A stretch of DNA of 64,000 bases, from the IMG/VR virus record IMGVR_UViG_3300043446_004967, positions 46,898 to 110,897 of that record. One strand, given 5' to 3'. The position numbers were made by a program, and so were the translations under genes. Positions within the stretch are counted from its first letter, which is position 1; each line of letters opens with the position of its first letter. Origin of the DNA: a virus. Of the stretch, positions 8,120-46,478 are shown piece after piece. The notes under the pieces are model-generated. The model did not search any database, was not told the origin of the DNA, and worked only from the letters and a program-made list of their open reading frames with translations.

Positions 8120-9400
8120 ATAAAAAACCCTCAAAAAAAATGCGGGCGAAGAAACGCGAAGGGTATACTCATAGTAAGTCAGTGATAGTTGGACCCCGGA
8201 AAAATAATTTCCGCCGAAACGGCCGCCCCCGGATAAATAATTTCTACTATACTATCGTACAATACCACGTAATAAAATACCCGCCGACCCGCCGCAAGTT
8301 CTTGCAATATAACCTGCTATAAGACACCTTCGCATCCCGCAATGTAATTTACTATACTACCCCATAATGGGCGACAACCGCCCCTAACCCGATTTACTAT
8401 CTACTATCCGTAAAACCAATTTACTATCTACTATTTGAAAATCCCGTCTACTATTTGGAAATAAAATACCGTCTACTATCACGCAATCCAATTTACTATC
8501 TACTATTTGGGGCCGCAAATTCTTGCAGAAAATAGGGAAAAAGGGCTGCAATAACTTGCAAAAAATGCTTAGATAAAGGCCCGGCTAAGGTAAGATTGGC
8601 CTTTCTGCAAGAAATTGCAGGCACAAAAAAGGGCAAAAAAAGGGGCAAAACAGAGCTGCAATAACTTGCAAAAAATAGGAAAAGCGGGCAAGATGAGGCT
8701 CTGCAAATTCTTGCAGGACCGCAAAACAAGGCAAAAAGGGCCGCAATTTCTTGCAGAAAAGGGCCGCAATAACTTGCAAAAAATACCCAAAACAGCCCTT
8801 TTGATGACCTTCTCCCCGATAGGAGAATCCGCTAAACCCCCTTTTGATGACCTCCGCTCCGATAGGCGAAAACGCCCCGGTACCCCCAAAACAGGCGAAA
8901 ACAGGCCCAAAAGTGCCAAAACTAGGGCAGATTGAGCGAATCTGCTATGGTTTTGGGTCGGATTTGGGTCGAATTTACCCCCGATTTACCCCGAATATTC
9001 CGTCTAAAGATAACTTCTCTCTTAGTAGGTATCTTGGGTATCTTGGTTGTAGTTGGACCCCGGAAAAATAATTTTCGTTTTGTTGGCCCGGAAAAATTGC
9101 CGTTTATTGCCGTTTATTGCCGTTTATTGCATGTTATTGCAAGAACGCGCAGGGGATCCAAAAGGGATTGAGAAGGTATTGAGGGAGAGGGGTATAGGTA
9201 ACGTAGGGTATCTAGGGGAAGTGTGGCCCCGGAAAAATAATTTCGTAAAAGAACCCCGCAATAATATGCAGTAGTAGGTAATAACGTGAAGTACGGGAGG
9301 AGGTAACGGACGGGTATAGGTAGGGGAAGTGTGGCCCCGGAAAAATTAAACGCAAAATATTGCGGATACAAAAAAGCCCCGACACCGATCGACGATACCG
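8120..9400. repeat. repeat-rich non-coding block (possible origin, terminal-repeat junction or packaging/injection signal)
   Basis: multiple TACTAT, TGCAA-N3/4-TTGCA and CCCCGGAAAAATAATTT copies, (GCCGTTTATT)x3, two 24-27 bp direct repeats; no credible ORF. Confidence 0.75.
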
Positions 9401-17314: not shown

Positions 17315-17623
17315 TTAATCCGCTTCTCGCGGCCACATCCCAGAACGTTTAAATTCATTCCATTTTTGGAGCCAACGCAGTTCCACAATGGGACGGGTGA
17401 CAAGGTTCAGGCTTTTCCATGCGTCTGAAGCTTTAAGCTTTGCCATAAAGAAATCCGCCTTTTGAGGGCGTATGTATTCATCCCCCGTCATCAATTCGTC
17501 CGCCAGTTTCATGGCGTTTTCGATTTGCATATAATATTTATTATTATTGCAATCATATTGAGCAAAGCGCGGGCGGCCTTTGCTGTCCAAATCGACGGCG
17601 GCGTTGTTGTTGTTATTTTCCAT
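17315..17623 (-). CDS. poly-Asn hypothetical protein (paralog of 19633..20037)
   Basis: MENNNNNAAVDLDSKGRPR...SLNLVTRPIVEL shared with the paralog. Confidence 0.8.
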   Translation of the reverse strand: MENNNNNAAVDLDSKGRPRFAQYDCNNNKYYMQIENAMKLADELMTGDEYIRPQKADFFMAKLKASDAWKSLNLVTRPIVELRWLQKWNEFKRSGMWPREAD

Positions 17624-17685
17624 CTCAATTCTCCACTGATTATTCTTTGTTAATTTTTGTTCGTGTCCGAAATGGCGGCTATTCC

Positions 17686-18478: not shown

Positions 18479-18506
18479 GATTTTCCCCTTTTTTGCTTCT
18501 AATTTG

Positions 18507-18674
18507 TTTTTTTCTTCTAAAACCAGCCTACCCTCTTTCTTGTCGCTCGTCAAGAGACAAATTTGGCGAACACATAAAAAAACCGCCCCGTGCCCAGAGC
18601 GGTTCCCTTGTAAAGGTTTCTTATTCCTTCCGGATGAAGCCCAGGATAAGGCCCGGCGCAGCGGAGTCGAACCC
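18507..18674 (-). repeat. 168-bp direct repeat copy 1 (coding 3' end + terminator + promoter)
   Basis: near-identical to 20596-20763; includes TTGACG-17-TAGGCT promoter and ACCGC hairpin terminator. Confidence 0.92.
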
Positions 18675-19640: not shown

Positions 19641-20037
19641 CCTCATCCCCCGCCCTCGTTCGGAAGTCATCCCCGAGCCATTCGACGACTCGGTTAAATT
19701 CCAGCCCCTCCGCCTCCCTAGGCCATTCGACATGATCGGCTCTTCGGAAGAGGTTCCATTTTCGGAGTAAACAAAGCTCCACAATTGGCCTCGTCACTAA
19801 ATTGAGCGAGGCCCAGCAAGACGATTTCTTTAGGGTATCAATCAATTCTTGTCCCGATCTAGGGCGAACATGAGGATCGCCGTCCATTATTTCGTCGGCT
19901 ATATTCAATGCTGTATTGATTTGCCTATAATATTCATTATTATCGCAATCATATTTACAAAGGCGCGGGCGGCCTTTGCTGTCCAAATCGACGGCGGCGT
20001 TGTTGTTGTTGTTGTTGTTGTTGTTGTTATTTTCCAT
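19633..20037 (-). CDS. poly-Asn hypothetical protein (paralog of 17315..17623)
   Basis: MENNNNNNNNNNNAAVDLDSKGRPR; (AAC)n microsatellite. Confidence 0.8.
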   Translation of the reverse strand: MENNNNNNNNNNNAAVDLDSKGRPRLCKYDCDNNEYYRQINTALNIADEIMDGDPHVRPRSGQELIDTLKKSSCWASLNLVTRPIVELCLLRKWNLFRRADHVEWPREAEGLEFNRVVEWLGDDFRTRAGDEDE

Positions 20038-20050
20038 TTCGCTTCCCCTT

Positions 20051-20314
20051 TTATGGATTTTTGTCAAATTTGGTGTATTTTTTTGCCGCAGCAGCAAAAT
20101 CGGCTGCCTTTTCGGCGTAAAGCGGGTCAAAGTTAGCCGCCTCCGCCATCTTCACCGCCGCTTCCCGGAAGCGGTATTGCGTGAACAAAGCCAGCGCAAA
20201 GAGGGCCTTGGCTTGCGCTGCCCGCTGGACCGCGCGCCGCGCCTCCTCCATTGCCTCCTGCTCTAACTCCAGCATCCCCCCCGCACCTCTCGCGGAACCC
20301 TCCACAGGCATCAC
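20051..20314 (-). CDS. small helical (TPR-like) protein
   Basis: A...A..Y.F.EA...M..A...DP pattern. Confidence 0.55.
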   Translation of the reverse strand: MMPVEGSARGAGGMLELEQEAMEEARRAVQRAAQAKALFALALFTQYRFREAAVKMAEAANFDPLYAEKAADFAAAAKKYTKFDKNP

Positions 20315-20326
20315 CTTTCCCCCGCG

Positions 20327-20575
20327 TCAGTTACTTTTTAGTCGTTGATCGTACTCATCAACGAACTTTTGAAAGTATGGCGCGAGTGACCCCGCGTTAG
20401 CCATACATTGCCGCGCCTTACTCAGATCACCCCGCTGTTCGTGCGTTCGCGCCAGCCAGTATTCGGCAGCGCAGCTCGCGGCCACTGAGCGCTGAAAACA
20501 TTCGTCAGCGCTCATCGCCGGCGTAAATGCCAGCTCCGCGTAAGGCCACCTCTTTCTACGGAATAATGAAAACAC
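20327..20575 (-). CDS. small helical (TPR-like) protein
   Basis: AEYWLARTHEQRGDLSKARQCMANAGSLAP resembles one TPR unit. Confidence 0.6.
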   Translation of the reverse strand: MFSLFRRKRWPYAELAFTPAMSADECFQRSVAASCAAEYWLARTHEQRGDLSKARQCMANAGSLAPYFQKFVDEYDQRLKSN

Positions 20576-20595
20576 TTACCTGTAACCCCTTTTTC

Positions 20596-20763
20596 TTTTT
20601 TTCTTCTAAAACCAGCCTACCCTCTTTCGTGTCGCTCGTCAAGAGACAAATTTGGCGAACACATAAAAAAACCGCCCCGTGCTCAGGGCGGTTCCCTTGT
20701 AAAACCCCCTTATTCCTTCCGGATGAAGCCCATGATAAGGCCCGGCGCAGCGGAGTCGAACCC
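20596..20763 (-). repeat. 168-bp direct repeat copy 2
   Basis: offset 2089 bp from copy 1. Confidence 0.92.
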
Positions 20764-21411
20764 AGATACCCCGAAGGACAACGGGTCTTTCGGGTCCGCT
20801 ACGGATCCCCTGTTCGCGGCAGCCGCAAGAACCACCAGCTTGGCCTTCGGGTGGCTCATGCGCAGAAGATCCCGCAAGGTCCACTCGTTGCGATTGTAGT
20901 ATTTAAGTGCCTGCCAAACTAACGCCTCGCCGGACTTCTCAGTAAACCAACGGGCGACCGCATCCCGCAAACCGCGACCCCATCCCCGCAACTTGTCCGA
21001 AAAACTTACAAACATTAGAATGTCGGTGCCCGTGCGGGCGACCGAGGGCAAGGCAGCTAAGGCCAGCCCCTTCGCCTCCGGCGTGGAGCACGACGCGACC
21101 AACGCTAAGGCAAAGATAACAGTATCCCGCTTCGCCGCCCTGCCGGCCATGCTGATCTCTACGATACGCGCGATAACGCGCACTGCGTCCCGCTCACACA
21201 ATGTGAGCAGGATTATCGCGTTCTCTTTAGTCAATGCCTCCGGACGCACGTAATACGTGCCGTTTTGCGATCCCGTTGTTAAAAAACGGTCCAACTGCTC
21301 CCACGGGTCCACCTCGTAGTAGGCGCCCCCGGCATTATTGGGGACTTGCCCCGGCAGAGGCTTTTTCGTAGAAAGCCCGCTCCCGCGCAAAATATCGCCA
21401 TACTTCGTCAT
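20710..21411 (-). CDS. rsr: Ro60/Rsr (TROVE) homolog with a large internal deletion
   Basis: QVPNNAGG, LDRFL..GS..GTYY, GWGRGLRDAV..W, KY.NR.EWT.RDLLR.SHPK joined directly to the vWA C-terminus AKLVV...SVADPKD...GFDSAAP. Confidence 0.9.
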   Translation of the reverse strand: MTKYGDILRGSGLSTKKPLPGQVPNNAGGAYYEVDPWEQLDRFLTTGSQNGTYYVRPEALTKENAIILLTLCERDAVRVIARIVEISMAGRAAKRDTVIFALALVASCSTPEAKGLALAALPSVARTGTDILMFVSFSDKLRGWGRGLRDAVARWFTEKSGEALVWQALKYYNRNEWTLRDLLRMSHPKAKLVVLAAAANRGSVADPKDPLSFGVSGFDSAAPGLIMGFIRKE

Positions 21412-21534
21412 TTTTTACGTCCTCTTTTCTCTTGTGTGCAGGCGTAACCCTGCACTGCCGCACGCTCAGCCGTCAACTACGGGAACCGCGAATAAGGCAA
21501 AATGAAAAAAACGAGGGGGGTGGAGAAGAAAAGG

Positions 21535-21636
21535 CGCGGGGCACGCTCAGCAGAAAAGCGATTAATAGCAGACGGCAATGCTGCTAATAAAACTGCGACT
21601 GTCACACAGTGGCTTGCTGCTGGTCTGGTGCCCCGC
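21535..21636 (-). ncRNA. structured RNA element between the Y-RNA-like array and the Ro60 gene
   Basis: closing stem GCGGGGCAC/GTGCCCCGC, CAGCAG/CTGCTG and two internal hairpins. Confidence 0.5.
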
Positions 21637-21646
21637 ATAAAAGTAA

Positions 21647-21731
21647 CTCTAAACGAATTAGACATGCTTGTCGCACAGGAGCATATGATTACAAGTCATA
21701 ACCTATGCGCTACGGCCCAACCCGTTTAGAG
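21647..21731 (-). ncRNA. Y-RNA-like RNA 1 (loop CU-UGU-AA)
   Basis: terminal stem, GGGCCG...ATGTCT bulged helix, GGTTAT motif; G-U pairs indicate the minus strand. Confidence 0.75.
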
Positions 21732-21739
21732 ATACGGTA

Positions 21740-21820
21740 TAAACAAACTGGACATTAGTTGCCCACAGGAGGGTATGTATTTCAAGGACATAACCTGCGA
21801 GCATCGGCCCAGTTTGTTTA
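21740..21820 (-). ncRNA. Y-RNA-like RNA 2 (loop CU-UGA-AA)
   Basis: 12-bp terminal stem TAAACAAACTGG/CCAGTTTGTTTA, GGGCCGA...ATGTCC, GGTTAT. Confidence 0.75.
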
Positions 21821-21822
21821 AG

Positions 21823-21905
21823 TATCGGGCATAAATCACCAGCCGGAGAGGGCGCAAGGCCCCATTTAGTATCTTGAATGATAACCAGCCGGTAGCGGCT
21901 CGATA
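21823..21905 (-). ncRNA. Y-RNA-like RNA 3
   Basis: TATCGAGCCG...ATGCCCGATA, GGTTATC, extra hairpin; begins at the predicted +1. Confidence 0.7.
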
Positions 21906-21911
21906 AAAAGA

Positions 21912-21940
21912 ACTCTATCGCAAAGCCCCGAACGACGCAA
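21912..21940 (-). promoter_or_regulatory. promoter for the RNA array
   Basis: TTGCGT-17-TAGAGT with AT-rich upstream element, ~7 nt before RNA 3. Confidence 0.6.
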
Positions 21941-22158
21941 GCTTTTTTTGAAAAAAATCAGCCGAACGCCAGTGCAATTTTTACTATACTATAGTCTAAT
22001 AGGTATGTATCTAATTGAGGTTACTCTCGCCTAAGCGAGAGTAACCTACGTGGCGTGGCCTTACGGTCGAGAAATATACCACAATTACGGCGCCGCCCGA
22101 GGCGACGCGCTTAAATTCCCATTTACTATCTACTATTTGCCGGAAGGGAGACGGCCCG

Positions 22159-46402: not shown

Positions 46403-46478
46403 TGGTTCTCCGGACAGGATTTGAACCTATGACCCGGGCGTTATGAGCGCCTTGCTCTAACCTCTGAGCTACCGGAGA
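46403..46478 (-). tRNA. tRNA with CAU anticodon (probably Ile2, possibly elongator Met)
   Basis: 76-nt cloverleaf TCTCCGG...CTCATAA...GGTTCAAATCC...CCGGAGA-A-CCA; C4-G69/C5-G68 favour Ile2. Confidence 0.92.

What the first reader, a model, noticed from the sequence alone, without database searches (positions are those of the whole stretch)
21535..21940. Tandem array of Y-RNA-like RNAs with anticodon-like loops upstream of a phage Ro60
Seen: three ~81-85 nt units (21823-21905, 21740-21820, 21647-21731) follow a TTGCGT-17-TAGAGT promoter. Their sequences differ but their fold is shared: a terminal stem, a G(G/A)GCCG...ATG(T/C)C helix with a bulged C, an inner stem, GGTTAT, then a short hairpin. 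G-U pairs fix the minus strand. In units 1 and 2 the hairpin is a 5-bp stem with a 7-nt loop, CU-UGU-AA and CU-UGA-AA (unit 2 has one extra mismatch pair). That is anticodon-arm geometry, reading Thr(UGU) and Ser(UGA). Known: bacterial Ro60 genes sit beside Y RNAs, which are bound through a bulged-C helix; the YrlA class mimics tRNA D/T/acceptor arms. Inference: these are Ro60-stabilised RNAs presenting variable anticodon loops, possibly decoys or sensors for anticodon nucleases or tRNA-modifying enzymes in anti-phage defence.
Basis: partly seen in the sequence, partly recalled or inferred. Interest (0 to 1): 0.92.

Follow-up and report, generated by a model that had tools for sequence, protein, structure and literature searches.

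The report
Short Y RNAs beside truncated Ro60
Three small hairpin RNA genes upstream of a phage Ro60 gene are short Y RNAs, the known partner RNAs of Ro60. Two of them end in a hairpin shaped like a tRNA anticodon arm, which I also find in about a quarter of such RNAs in phages and bacteria, and the Ro60 gene here has lost its middle 300 codons.

Summary
Three tandem units lie on the minus strand: unit 1 at 21905-21823, unit 2 at 21820-21740 and unit 3 at 21731-21647. They fill the intergenic region upstream of a TROVE/Ro60 gene in a 110.9-kb freshwater phage.

- **Homology.** Units 2 and 3 are clear paralogs. Of 27 shared base pairs, 4 changed on both sides and none is broken.
- **Independent model.** A covariance model built only from 32 short Y RNAs of other phages ranks units 2 and 3 first and second in the window. 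Unit 1 is divergent and the model does not find it.
- **Rfam.** No family (YrlA, Y_RNA, tRNA) matches.
- **Apical hairpin.** It follows the conserved GGUUAY junction and sits where YrlA has its "V" stem-loop.
- **Survey.** Across 279 Y-like elements, 65 have a stem of at least 4 bp and a 7-nt loop. These loops show an anticodon-loop pattern, C32 U33 NNN A37 A38, with free NNN.

The anticodon likeness is therefore a family trait. The decoy function remains untested.

The adjacent Ro60 is only 233 aa because of a lineage-specific in-frame deletion.

Tandem Y RNAs upstream of phage Ro60 are already published. This scan has also noted anticodon-arm RNAs beside Ro60-like genes on other DNA.

The parts
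21912..21940 (-). Promoter-like TTGCGT-17-TAGAGT. It ends 6 nt before unit 1 and is a weak match to the consensus.
   Evidence: Read from the sequence. The sigma-70 scan did not call it.
21823..21905 (-). Unit 1: a divergent Y-like RNA. It has GAGCCG with an A-C mismatch in the Ro helix, GGUUAUC, a 4-bp stem with a 6-nt loop (21883-21870), and an extra 5-bp hairpin that makes a three-way junction.
   Evidence: Fold -27.8 kcal/mol, z -2.0. Model R1 gives 15.1 bits, E 0.39. Model R2 does not find it.
21740..21820 (-). Unit 2: a short Y RNA. It has a 14-bp terminal and Ro-binding stem with a bulged C, a 10-bp upper stem and GGUUAU. The apical hairpin is 21792-21774, with loop core CUUGAAA at 21786-21780.
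   Evidence: Fold -33.8 kcal/mol, z -6.5. Best hit in the window for the independent model R2: 22.4 bits, E 0.0026.
21647..21731 (-). Unit 3: a short Y RNA and paralog of unit 2. Its apical hairpin has a 5-bp stem and the 7-nt loop CUUGUAA (21700-21684).
   Evidence: Fold -35.0 kcal/mol, z -5.4. R1 gives 51.8 bits and R2 gives 18.8 bits, E 0.021. Of 27 pairs shared with unit 2, 4 changed on both sides and 0 are broken.
21533..21640 (-). Fourth structured element. A 9-bp G+C-rich stem closes a branched interior and is followed by a U-rich tract. It is either the terminator of the array or a further RNA, and it has no Y motifs.
   Evidence: Fold -46.0 kcal/mol, z -4.7. Terminator-like site at 21546-21534. 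No match with R2 or by BLAST to the other loci.
20710..21411 (-). Internally deleted Ro60 (TROVE) gene of 233 aa. Residues 20-191 align to X. laevis Ro60 13-191 and residues 189-229 align to 493-533. The junction is near 20836-20845.
   Evidence: Pfam hits to TROVE positions 2-175 of 442 and vWA_Ro60 positions 121-165 of 165. Alignment with 535-aa relatives. PDB 1yvp. Two Logan contigs of about 42.8 kb cover 20653-22100 with no differences.

Best explanation
**What it is**
The three units are genes for short Y RNAs, the non-coding partner RNAs of Ro60/Rsr. They belong to the hairpin class (like YrlB and Yrn2), not the tRNA-like YrlA class.

**Anatomy of each unit**
- The 5' and 3' ends pair into a terminal stem.
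- This stem runs into the Ro60-binding helix, G(G/A)GCCG against UG(U/C)C, with a bulged C and a G-U pair.
- An internal loop follows, then an 8-10 bp upper stem.
- Next come the conserved GGUUAY junction and an apical hairpin.
- That hairpin is the counterpart of the 'V' stem-loop of YrlA. By its place in tRNA-like relatives it is a former tRNA anticodon arm.
- In units 2 and 3 it keeps the anticodon-loop frame, C-U-NNN-A-A.

**How it most likely works (inferred)**
- The array is transcribed as one precursor, alone or together with the Ro60 gene, and is cut into hairpins of about 65-85 nt.
- The stem docks on the outer face of Ro60.
- The apical hairpin is the effector-facing module. It recruits or occupies a protein that recognises the shape of an anticodon loop rather than one particular anticodon.

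**The complication in this phage**
The partner gene has lost the rest of the ring and the vWA domain. The RNAs would therefore have to work with the 233-aa remnant, which keeps the residues aligned to the Y-RNA-binding K170 and R174, or with a host Ro60. Otherwise the system is on its way out.
For: **Shown here**
- **Location.** The units lie upstream of a TROVE gene on the same strand. That is where 22 of 26 other phage Ro60 loci carry 1-5 elements with the same motifs.
- **Independent model.** R2, built from 32 short Y RNAs of other phages, has strong covariation. 85% of cells are paired against 68% when shuffled, and 129 cells changed on both sides against 50, with 0 of 500 shuffles as high. 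Its two best hits in 128 kb searched are units 2 and 3, at 22.4 and 18.8 bits. The next best hit scores 11.1 bits.
- **Structure kept after duplication.** Between units 2 and 3, 18 pairs are the same, 5 changed on one side, 4 changed on both sides and 0 are broken.
- **Strand.** Folding favours the minus strand.
- **Apical hairpin, phage set.** 36% of hairpins after GGUUA have 7-nt loops, against 11% in controls. 20 of 33 such loops have U at position 2 and A at position 6, against 7% in controls (p 2e-15).
- **Apical hairpin, bacterial set.** The same holds for 30 of 46 loops.
- **Loop pattern.** Information content is high at positions 32, 33, 37 and 38 and near zero at 34-36.
- **Place in tRNA-like relatives.** In the 28 tRNA-like elements whose hairpin precedes a confirmed T stem, the commonest layout (12 cases) is a 4-bp hairpin, then a 6-nt (G/C)(A/U)GGUC linker, then a 5-bp T stem with a UUCGAGU-type loop.

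**From papers**
- GNCGAA motif, the conserved YUAY that begins the V loop, hairpin-class Y RNAs, and processing of two Y RNAs from one precursor upstream of rsr (PMC4201824).
- Thermus phage phiLo Ro60 binds two upstream Y-like RNAs through residues 137-193 (PMC12135203).
Against: - There are no transcript, end-mapping or binding data. No RNA run holds this sequence.
- No Rfam family matches at E up to 10: not YrlA RF02553, not Y_RNA RF00019, not tRNA.
- The R2 scores are modest. An equal 18.8-bit hit lies inside a coding region elsewhere in the phage, so a single hit would not be convincing on its own.
- Unit 1 fails R2 and has an A-C mismatch in the Ro helix.
- All three units depart from the CGAA core (CGCU, CGAU, CGUA in units 1-3). 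In phiLo, single changes there cost 3-4 fold in affinity.
- The Ro60 partner is truncated.
- No close relative of the units was found in the viral or metagenome collections.
Confidence: 0.75

Rival explanations
1. One reading: the RNAs are baits, decoys or sensors. Ro60 or its remnant holds the stem, and the apical hairpin presents an anticodon-arm mimic. The mimic would soak up or report anticodon nucleases, or occupy tRNA repair or modification enzymes, in the phage-host conflict over tRNA. This extends the best explanation and does not exclude it.
For: - The anticodon-loop frame is under constraint while NNN is free. This holds even among close orthologs with identical stems: CCGU/ACGG stems carry GCU, GCA and GUA, and CAGA/UCUG stems carry GUA, GUG and UUG.
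- Hughes et al. 2020 propose that YrlA may act as a competitive inhibitor of an anticodon nuclease (PMC7790460).
- Phage TROVE genes are grouped with RNA-repair systems (PMC7824862).
- Earlier notes of this scan describe anticodon-arm RNAs beside Ro60-like DUF2828 genes in other phages. These notes are unchecked.
Against: - No nuclease, ligase or defence gene was found next to this array.
- About three quarters of Y-like elements lack such a hairpin.
- Many stems are only 3-4 bp.
- A37 is kept even where real tRNAs would carry G37.
- The loop frame could simply be what gives a stable U-turn loop.
- Nothing here shows binding or cleavage.
Confidence: 0.15
2. A decaying locus. The Ro60 deletion inactivated the particle, and the RNAs are leftovers that have not yet degraded. 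The anticodon-like loops would then be inherited from tRNA-derived ancestors and have no present role in this phage.
For: - The Ro60 gene lacks about 300 internal residues.
- No other protein of this architecture and size exists in 5.8 billion sequences apart from the phage's own.
- Unit 1 is degenerate.
- The region is scarred by a segmental duplication that copied the Ro60 3' end onto a helicase gene.
Against: - Units 2 and 3 have no broken pair and carry four two-sided compensatory changes.
- The deletion is in frame, and the start codon and ribosome-binding site are intact.
- The remnant keeps the residues aligned with K170, R174 and H187 of X. laevis Ro60.
Confidence: 0.25
3. A cis-acting leader. 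The hairpins are not released. They are part of the 5' untranslated region of the Ro60 mRNA, where Ro60 binding would feed back on its own expression.
For: - The array lies between a promoter-like site and the Ro60 start on the same strand.
Against: - A strong stem followed by a U-rich tract (21640-21533) separates the array from the gene.
- In M. smegmatis, Y RNAs upstream of rsr are processed out of a precursor (PMC4201824).
- In other phages the arrays also occur downstream of Ro60.
Confidence: 0.1
4. Not RNA genes at all. The units would be DNA palindromes, terminators or chance hairpins.
For: - The terminator scan flags two small sites inside units 1 and 2.
- Rfam finds nothing.
Against: - Folding is strand-asymmetric.
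- The conserved unpaired motifs GGCCG and GGUUAU are shared with dozens of Ro60 loci.
- Model R2 hits units 2 and 3.
- Pairs are kept by compensatory changes.
Confidence: 0.04

Closest known systems
Hairpin-class bacterial Y RNAs: S. Typhimurium and M. smegmatis YrlB, D. radiodurans Yrn2 (Chen et al. 2014, PMC4201824)
   Same: - Encoded next to rsr/Ro60.
- One long hairpin formed by the 5' and 3' ends.
- A Ro60-binding motif near the 5' end.
- Several Y RNAs per locus, made from one precursor upstream of rsr in M. smegmatis.
   Different: - The published examples are described as ending in a small pyrimidine-rich loop. Here the apex is a discrete 5-bp hairpin with an anticodon-type 7-nt loop.
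- The motif core is CGAU, CGUA or CGCU instead of CGAA.
- Binding has not been tested.
YrlA (Rfam RF02553; Chen et al. 2014; structure in Wang et al. 2018, bioRxiv 10.1101/312249)
   Same: - The same Ro-binding stem.
- The same conserved YUAY (here GGUUAY) at the top of the stem.
- The units' apical hairpin is in the place of YrlA's 'V' stem-loop.
   Different: - The units have no T arm, D arm or acceptor-like stem.
- The RF02553 model finds nothing in the phage at E up to 10.
- The papers treat the Y stem as the anticodon-stem equivalent and say that YrlA lacks an anticodon loop. My survey places the V hairpin at the anticodon-arm position.
Thermus phage phiLo Ro60 with Yrl1 and Yrl2 (NAR 2025, PMC12135203)
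   Same: - A phage-encoded Ro60 with tandem Y-like RNAs just upstream.
- A stem-bulge-stem handle carrying the CGAA-type motif.
- Binding mapped to helices 8 and 10 (residues 137-193), a region that the remnant here retains by alignment.
   Different: - phiLo Ro60 is a full ring, binds its RNAs and recruits host PNPase. Here the ring is deleted.
- No anticodon-like hairpin is described for Yrl1 or Yrl2.
Eukaryotic Y RNAs and nematode stem-bulge RNAs (Rfam RF00019, RF01656)
   Same: - A bulged-C helix, an upper stem, a UUAU-type motif at the loop entry and a pyrimidine-rich return strand.
- A short Y RNA of another phage (L014 2886-2949) scores above the gathering cut-off of RF01656.
- The likeness to human Y4 and Y5 around GGGUUAU is from my memory only.
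   Different: - The window's units match neither family at E up to 10.
- Eukaryotic Y RNAs have large internal loops, not an anticodon-type hairpin.
Handle-tagged anticodon-arm RNAs beside Ro60-like DUF2828 genes in phages
   Same: Arrays of small RNAs next to a Ro60-shaped protein gene, each with a shared handle and a tRNA anticodon-arm-like hairpin.
   Different: - Those have a different protein family (DUF2828) and a different handle (a stem followed by ACAGCAA).
- Here the protein is a canonical TROVE Ro60 and the handle is the canonical Y-RNA helix.

Membership tests
Y RNA (Ro60 partner RNA, working definition of Chen et al. 2014) | Encoded within about 2 kb of a Ro60/TROVE gene | tested here: met
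   The array ends 236 nt upstream of the TROVE ORF start on the same strand. The same layout occurs in 22 of 26 phage Ro60 loci.
Y RNA (Ro60 partner RNA, working definition of Chen et al. 2014) | The 5' and 3' ends pair into a stem that carries the conserved Ro-binding helix: GNCGAA-type motif, bulged C and a G-U pair | tested here: met
   Units 2 and 3 have GGGC[C]G against UGUC(C/U), with the bulged C and the G-U pair. Unit 3 restores the next pair by a two-sided change. The motif cores CGAU, CGUA and CGCU also occur in other loci. Unit 1 has an A-C mismatch, so it meets this feature only in part.
Y RNA (Ro60 partner RNA, working definition of Chen et al. 2014) | Bound by Ro60 and dependent on it for accumulation | not testable with these tools
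   This needs pull-down or EMSA and a knockout. No RNA run holds the sequence.
   Unit 2 scores 22.4 bits (E 0.0026) and unit 3 scores 18.8 bits (E 0.021). They rank first and second in the window. Unit 1 is not found at E up to 10. One equal-scoring hit, probably by chance, lies in a coding region elsewhere in the phage.
YrlA (Rfam RF02553) | tRNA-like domain with T arm, D arm and closed acceptor-like stem, and a match to the family model | tested here: not met
   There is no T-loop or D-loop motif in the units. RF02553 finds nothing in the whole phage at E up to 10.
Y_RNA (Rfam RF00019) and other Rfam families | Match to the family model | tested here: not met
   No match at E up to 10 in 21300-22100 or in 21640-21910. 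RF00019 finds nothing in the phage.
tRNA | Cloverleaf recognised by ARAGORN or Rfam RF00005 | tested here: not met
   The only tRNA in the window is tRNA-Met at 46403-46478.
tRNA anticodon-arm mimic | 5-bp stem and 7-nt loop with pyrimidine 32, U33, purine 37 | tested here: met
   Unit 3 has UAUGA / CUUGUAA / UCAUA. Unit 2 has CUUGAAA closed by a C-U mismatch on a 5-bp stem. Unit 1 is not met (4 bp, 6-nt AUUCAA). At family level the loop pattern is C32 U33 NNN A37 A38.
Ro60 / Rsr protein (the partner gene) | Complete HEAT-repeat ring (TROVE) plus a vWA domain with MIDAS | tested here: not met
   Only TROVE positions 2-175 of 442 and vWA_Ro60 positions 121-165 of 165 are present. Residues equivalent to X. 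laevis 192-492 are missing.

The most novel reading that the evidence does not exclude
Ro60 particles of bacteria and phages may commonly display an interchangeable anticodon-arm mimic. About a quarter of Ro60-linked Y RNAs, including two of the three here, carry a hairpin that selection holds in the C32-U33 ... A37-A38 frame of a tRNA anticodon loop. The three 'anticodon' positions change freely, even between close orthologs with identical stems. If that display is functional, Y RNAs would act as baits, competitive inhibitors or guides for enzymes that act on anticodon loops (anticodon nucleases, repair ligases, modification enzymes). The minimal units of this phage, a handle plus an anticodon arm, would be the simplest form of that device. 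They might be usable with only the Y-RNA-binding third of Ro60.
Probability: 0.2. Interest if true: 0.8.

Novelty: new variant of a known kind. Interest (0 to 1): 0.5.

Why it matters
**What is ordinary**
Y RNAs next to Ro60, in phages too, are established. As a locus this is another member of that kind.

**What is new: the module these RNAs present**
- The published view is that bacterial Y RNAs mimic the tRNA elbow, and that YrlA lacks an anticodon loop.
- The survey prompted by this finding shows a hairpin with the anticodon-loop pattern in many phage and bacterial Y RNAs. In tRNA-like members it sits at the anticodon-arm position.
- That fits the proposal that YrlA arose from a tRNA dimer.
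- It also gives a concrete, testable handle on an open question: what the effector side of bacterial Y RNAs binds.

**Why this phage is useful**
It offers a natural minimal pair to test, consisting of 81-85-nt RNAs that are only a handle plus a hairpin, and a 233-aa Ro60 remnant.

Tried and rejected
- **Genomic context of close Ro60 relatives.** I could not read the context of the closest Ro60 relative, P0001 (74% identity).
- **Search for close relatives of the protein or the units.**
  - BLAST of the region against phage records: no match.
  - Protein-pattern scans with the 233-aa protein in viral contigs and with a two-sequence alignment in metagenome contigs: nothing.
  - A DNA pattern shared by units 2 and 3 gave one chance hit inside a gene in viral contigs.
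  - A related pattern gave 20 hits in metagenome contigs, none of which looks like a Y RNA.
- **Expression.** No RNA holder is listed for the stretch. Only two DNA runs of one freshwater sample hold it, and that sample is probably the source.
- **Rfam.** Nothing at gathering or at E up to 10, and nothing for RF02553 or RF00019 in the whole phage.
- **Automatic alignment.** The MAFFT alignment of the three units misplaced the 3' halves. I used a single-sequence model instead.
- **Weak R2 hits at 8575-8994.** These lie in a repeat-rich non-coding region and are not Y RNAs.
- **R2 hit at L157 15381-15439.** It lies in a coding region and lacks the GGGCCG motif, so I take it as chance.
- **Fourth element and leader.** Neither has a counterpart in any fetched locus.
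- **Neighbouring ORFs.** Neighbouring ORFs have no informative Pfam or PHROG match, apart from a helicase. No nuclease or ligase is adjacent.
- **Papers.** Two reviews on bacterial Y RNAs are not held.
- **Not attempted.** I did not fold the mini-Ro60, because a confident model would not show that it is stable or binds RNA.
Full report
**Setting**

The window is part of an IMG/VR virus record of 110,897 bp with direct terminal repeats. The only runs that hold the stretch come from one freshwater metagenome sample. The finding lies in a 750-nt intergenic region on the minus strand. It sits between an ORF of unknown function (22641-22159) and a TROVE-domain ORF (21411-20710).

**The observation**

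Read on the minus strand, three units follow one another with 2- and 8-nt spacers:
- unit 1 at 21905-21823
- unit 2 at 21820-21740
- unit 3 at 21731-21647

Each folds into one long rod. The parts, in order, are:
- a terminal stem
- G(G/A)GCCG paired with UG(U/C)C around a bulged C
- an internal loop
- an 8-10 bp upper stem ending in GG
- UUAU
- an apical hairpin
- a short pyrimidine-rich return

Units 2 and 3 fold far better than shuffles (z -6.5 and -5.4), and about 10 kcal/mol better than their complements. Unit 1 folds only marginally better than shuffles (z -2.0).

A covariance model of unit 2 alone finds unit 3 at 51.8 bits (E 4e-10). It finds unit 1 at 15.1 bits (E 0.39). Between units 2 and 3, 27 homologous pairs can be compared. 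Eighteen are identical, five changed on one side through G-U, four changed on both sides, and none is broken. The structure has therefore been maintained since the duplication.

- The two anticodon-like loops are in units 2 and 3, that is, the second and third units in the order of transcription.
- Unit 1 has a 4-bp stem with a 6-nt loop, plus an extra hairpin.
- The promoter-like hexamers are present and well placed but weak. The scan does not call them.
- The Ro60 gene is truncated.

**What the units are**

Rfam gives nothing, even at E up to 10. The YrlA and Y_RNA models find nothing anywhere in the phage. I therefore compared the units with other Ro60 loci.

Thirty-three viral contigs with full-length Ro60 genes were fetched. 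A simple motif, the 5' G(G/A)(G/U)(C/U)CG followed within 8-30 nt by GGUUA, marks 1-5 elements just upstream of Ro60 on the same strand in 22 of 26 distinct loci. These elements fall into two kinds:
- short rods of 58-72 nt
- longer RNAs that carry T, D and acceptor-like arms, which Rfam calls tRNA of 98-131 nt

Thirty-two short rods from other phages align well, and their common structure has strong covariation. 85% of cells are paired against 68% in shuffles, and 129 cells changed on both sides against 50. None of 500 shuffles reaches these values, and slid controls give 38-52% paired.

Model R2, built from these sequences and not from the window, ranks unit 2 (22.4 bits, E 0.0026) and unit 3 (18.8 bits, E 0.021) first and second in the whole window. 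The next hit scores 11.1 bits.

The scores are modest. One equal-scoring hit, probably by chance, lies in a coding region elsewhere in the phage. What carries the weight is that the two top hits are adjacent, on the same strand, and in the one place where Y RNAs are expected. Unit 1 is not found by R2. I count it as a divergent or decaying third copy.

**Comparison with the literature**

- Chen et al. [quoted passage not shown] They found Y RNAs in 22 phages.
- For Thermus phage phiLo, two Y-like RNAs upstream of the phage Ro60 gene were shown to bind the protein through residues 137-193. Together with host PNPase they form ternary complexes.

Tandem Y RNAs upstream of a phage Ro60 are therefore a known arrangement. 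The units here are new members of the hairpin class.

**The anticodon-like hairpin**

I tested this on sequences that exclude the window.

*Phage set* (139 distinct elements from the Ro60 loci and from a motif scan of viral contigs):
- 36% of the hairpins that follow GGUUA have 7-nt loops, against 11% at random positions of the same loci.
- After setting T loops aside, 20 of 33 such loops have U at the second position and A at the sixth. The control rate is 7% (p 2e-15).
- 16 of the 33 fit pyrimidine-U-NNN-purine (p 1e-10).

*Bacterial set* (80 Ro60 loci):
- The figure is 30 of 46.

*Stricter definition* (stem of at least 4 bp, loop of exactly 7 nt):
- 65 of 279 elements qualify.
- Both sets give the same pattern: C32, U33, A37 and A38 carry 0.5-0.9 bits each, and positions 34-36 carry 0.06-0.34 bits.
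- Orthologs with identical stems differ precisely in the triplet. CCGU/ACGG stems carry GCU, GCA and GUA. CAGA/UCUG stems carry GUA, GUG and UUG.

*Position in tRNA-like elements.* In 28 tRNA-like elements the hairpin precedes a confirmed T stem. The commonest layout (12 cases) is a 4-bp hairpin, then a 6-nt linker of the form (G/C)(A/U)GGUC, then a 5-bp T stem with a UUCGAGU-type loop. That is the spacing and sequence of an anticodon stem's end plus a normal 5-nt variable loop.

The 'V' stem-loop is therefore best read as a former anticodon arm, with the Y stem attached just 5' of it. This fits the tRNA-dimer origin discussed by Wang et al.. It differs from the published description, in which the Y stem replaces the anticodon stem and YrlA lacks an anticodon loop.

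The window's units 2 and 3 are the minimal version: a handle plus this hairpin, and nothing else. The closest look-alikes are L149 1720-1786 and the element in L021 whose 5' motif starts at 2314. Both read AGGUUAUCA-CUGUUAA-UGAUG.

**What this does and does not show**

It shows that the loop frame is under constraint in many lineages and that the triplet is not. It does not show what the hairpin binds.

- About three quarters of Y-like elements have no such hairpin.
- Many stems are short.
- A is kept at position 37 regardless of the triplet.

A stable U-turn loop recognised by shape is enough to explain the pattern. The decoy idea has a published relative: Hughes et al. suggest that YrlA might competitively inhibit an anticodon nuclease. 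Phage TROVE genes have also been grouped with RNA repair. But no nuclease, ligase or defence gene lies next to this array, and nothing here speaks to binding or cleavage.

Earlier notes of this scan report arrays of anticodon-arm RNAs beside Ro60-like DUF2828 genes in other phages, with a different handle. I did not test those notes. They suggest the theme recurs.

**The partner gene**

The ORF downstream encodes 233 aa.
- Pfam matches TROVE positions 2-175 of 442 and the last 45 positions of the Ro60 vWA domain.
- Against 535-aa relatives (best 74% identity) the alignment shows one clean in-frame gap after SHPKAK.
- Against X. laevis Ro60, residues 20-191 align to 13-191 and residues 189-229 align to 493-533.
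- The remnant keeps the K and R aligned with K170 and R174, and the H aligned with H187. From memory, these are the residues used in Y-RNA-binding and cavity mutants of vertebrate Ro60.
- By alignment it also covers the region equivalent to phiLo residues 137-193.
- It cannot form the ring.

A search of 5.8 billion proteins of similar length finds no other protein with this architecture and size except the phage's own. The deletion is therefore specific to this lineage. The junction is not an artefact of one assembly, because two Logan contigs of about 42.8 kb from the same sample cover 20653-22100 without a difference. This is the same sample, so it is not independent biological support.

Either the remnant still holds the RNAs, or a host Ro60 does, or the system is decaying. 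I cannot decide between these. The intact pairing of units 2 and 3 and the preserved frame argue mildly against pure decay.

**Verdict**

- The Y-RNA reading is supported for units 2 and 3 and is plausible for unit 1.
- The anticodon-arm likeness is real and turns out to be a family trait.
- The proposed function is untested.

As a locus this is a new member of a known kind. The minimal handle-plus-anticodon-arm form, and the family-wide loop pattern, make it a new variant worth a modest follow-up.

Noticed in passing
window 20710-21411 (-), junction near 20836-20845: The Ro60 gene carries a clean in-frame deletion of about 300 codons (X. laevis residues 192-492). The junction falls in a short shared AK(L) sequence. 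The start codon, ribosome-binding site and last 45 residues are kept. No other protein of this architecture and size exists in the large protein database.
   Followed up: partly
window 18503-18674 and 20592-20763; also 17358-17660 and 19754-20074: A 172-nt direct repeat (94% identical) holds the last 18 codons of Ro60 plus 118 nt downstream. The second copy supplies the C-terminus (…GFDSAAPGLILGFIRKE) of a DEAD/DEAH helicase ORF (19784-18621). A second, older repeat pair duplicates an ORF with a poly-Asn N-terminus. Together they look like a segmental duplication or recombination scar.
   Followed up: partly
window minus strand at 22140, 8510, 8438, 8411, 5596, 5569, 3914; non-coding region 8400-9150: A 17-20 nt motif (AATAGTAGATAGTAAAT and variants) recurs, always on the minus strand and mostly between genes. 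One copy lies about 215 nt upstream of the Y RNA array. The 8400-9150 region is packed with this and other short repeats. It may be a phage promoter or operator motif, or an origin or iteron region.
   Followed up: partly
window 21533-21640 (-): A 108-nt element with a 9-bp G+C stem that closes a branched interior (z -4.7), followed by a U-rich tract. An 11-mer, GCTGAGCGTGC, recurs 80 nt downstream. It could be a terminator or attenuator between the array and Ro60, or a fourth RNA. No counterpart was found elsewhere.
   Followed up: partly
window 20042-20625: In one of the two runs of the source sample, the contig that covers this repeat-flanked segment has a depth of about 10. The flanking contigs have 37-41. 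The other run shows no dip. This may reflect population heterogeneity at the repeats, or it may be an artefact of contig depth.
   Followed up: no
L004 4949-5089, L004 5368-5516 and many others: Phage Y RNAs embed tRNA bodies in more than one topology. One is a circularly permuted form: hairpin, (G/C)(A/U)GGUC linker, T arm, closed acceptor stem, D arm. At least one other (L004 4949-5089) has an apparently unpermuted tRNA body inside a Y stem.
   Followed up: partly
L014 2886-2949: A 64-nt short Y RNA just upstream of a phage Ro60 gene scores 44.6 bits against the nematode stem-bulge RNA family RF01656 (cut-off 38). Stem-bulge RNAs are the nematode Y RNA homologs.
   Followed up: no
L157 15381-15439 (-), outside the window: An R2 hit of 18.8 bits lies inside a coding region (G+C 71%) and lacks the GGGCCG motif. 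It is probably chance, and it is a caution about the model's E-values.
   Followed up: partly
window 46403-46478 (-) and L158 3391-3481 (-): The phage carries two tRNA genes, Met(CAU) and Ser(GCU). Neither matches the triplets shown by units 2 and 3 (UGA, UGU).
   Followed up: no
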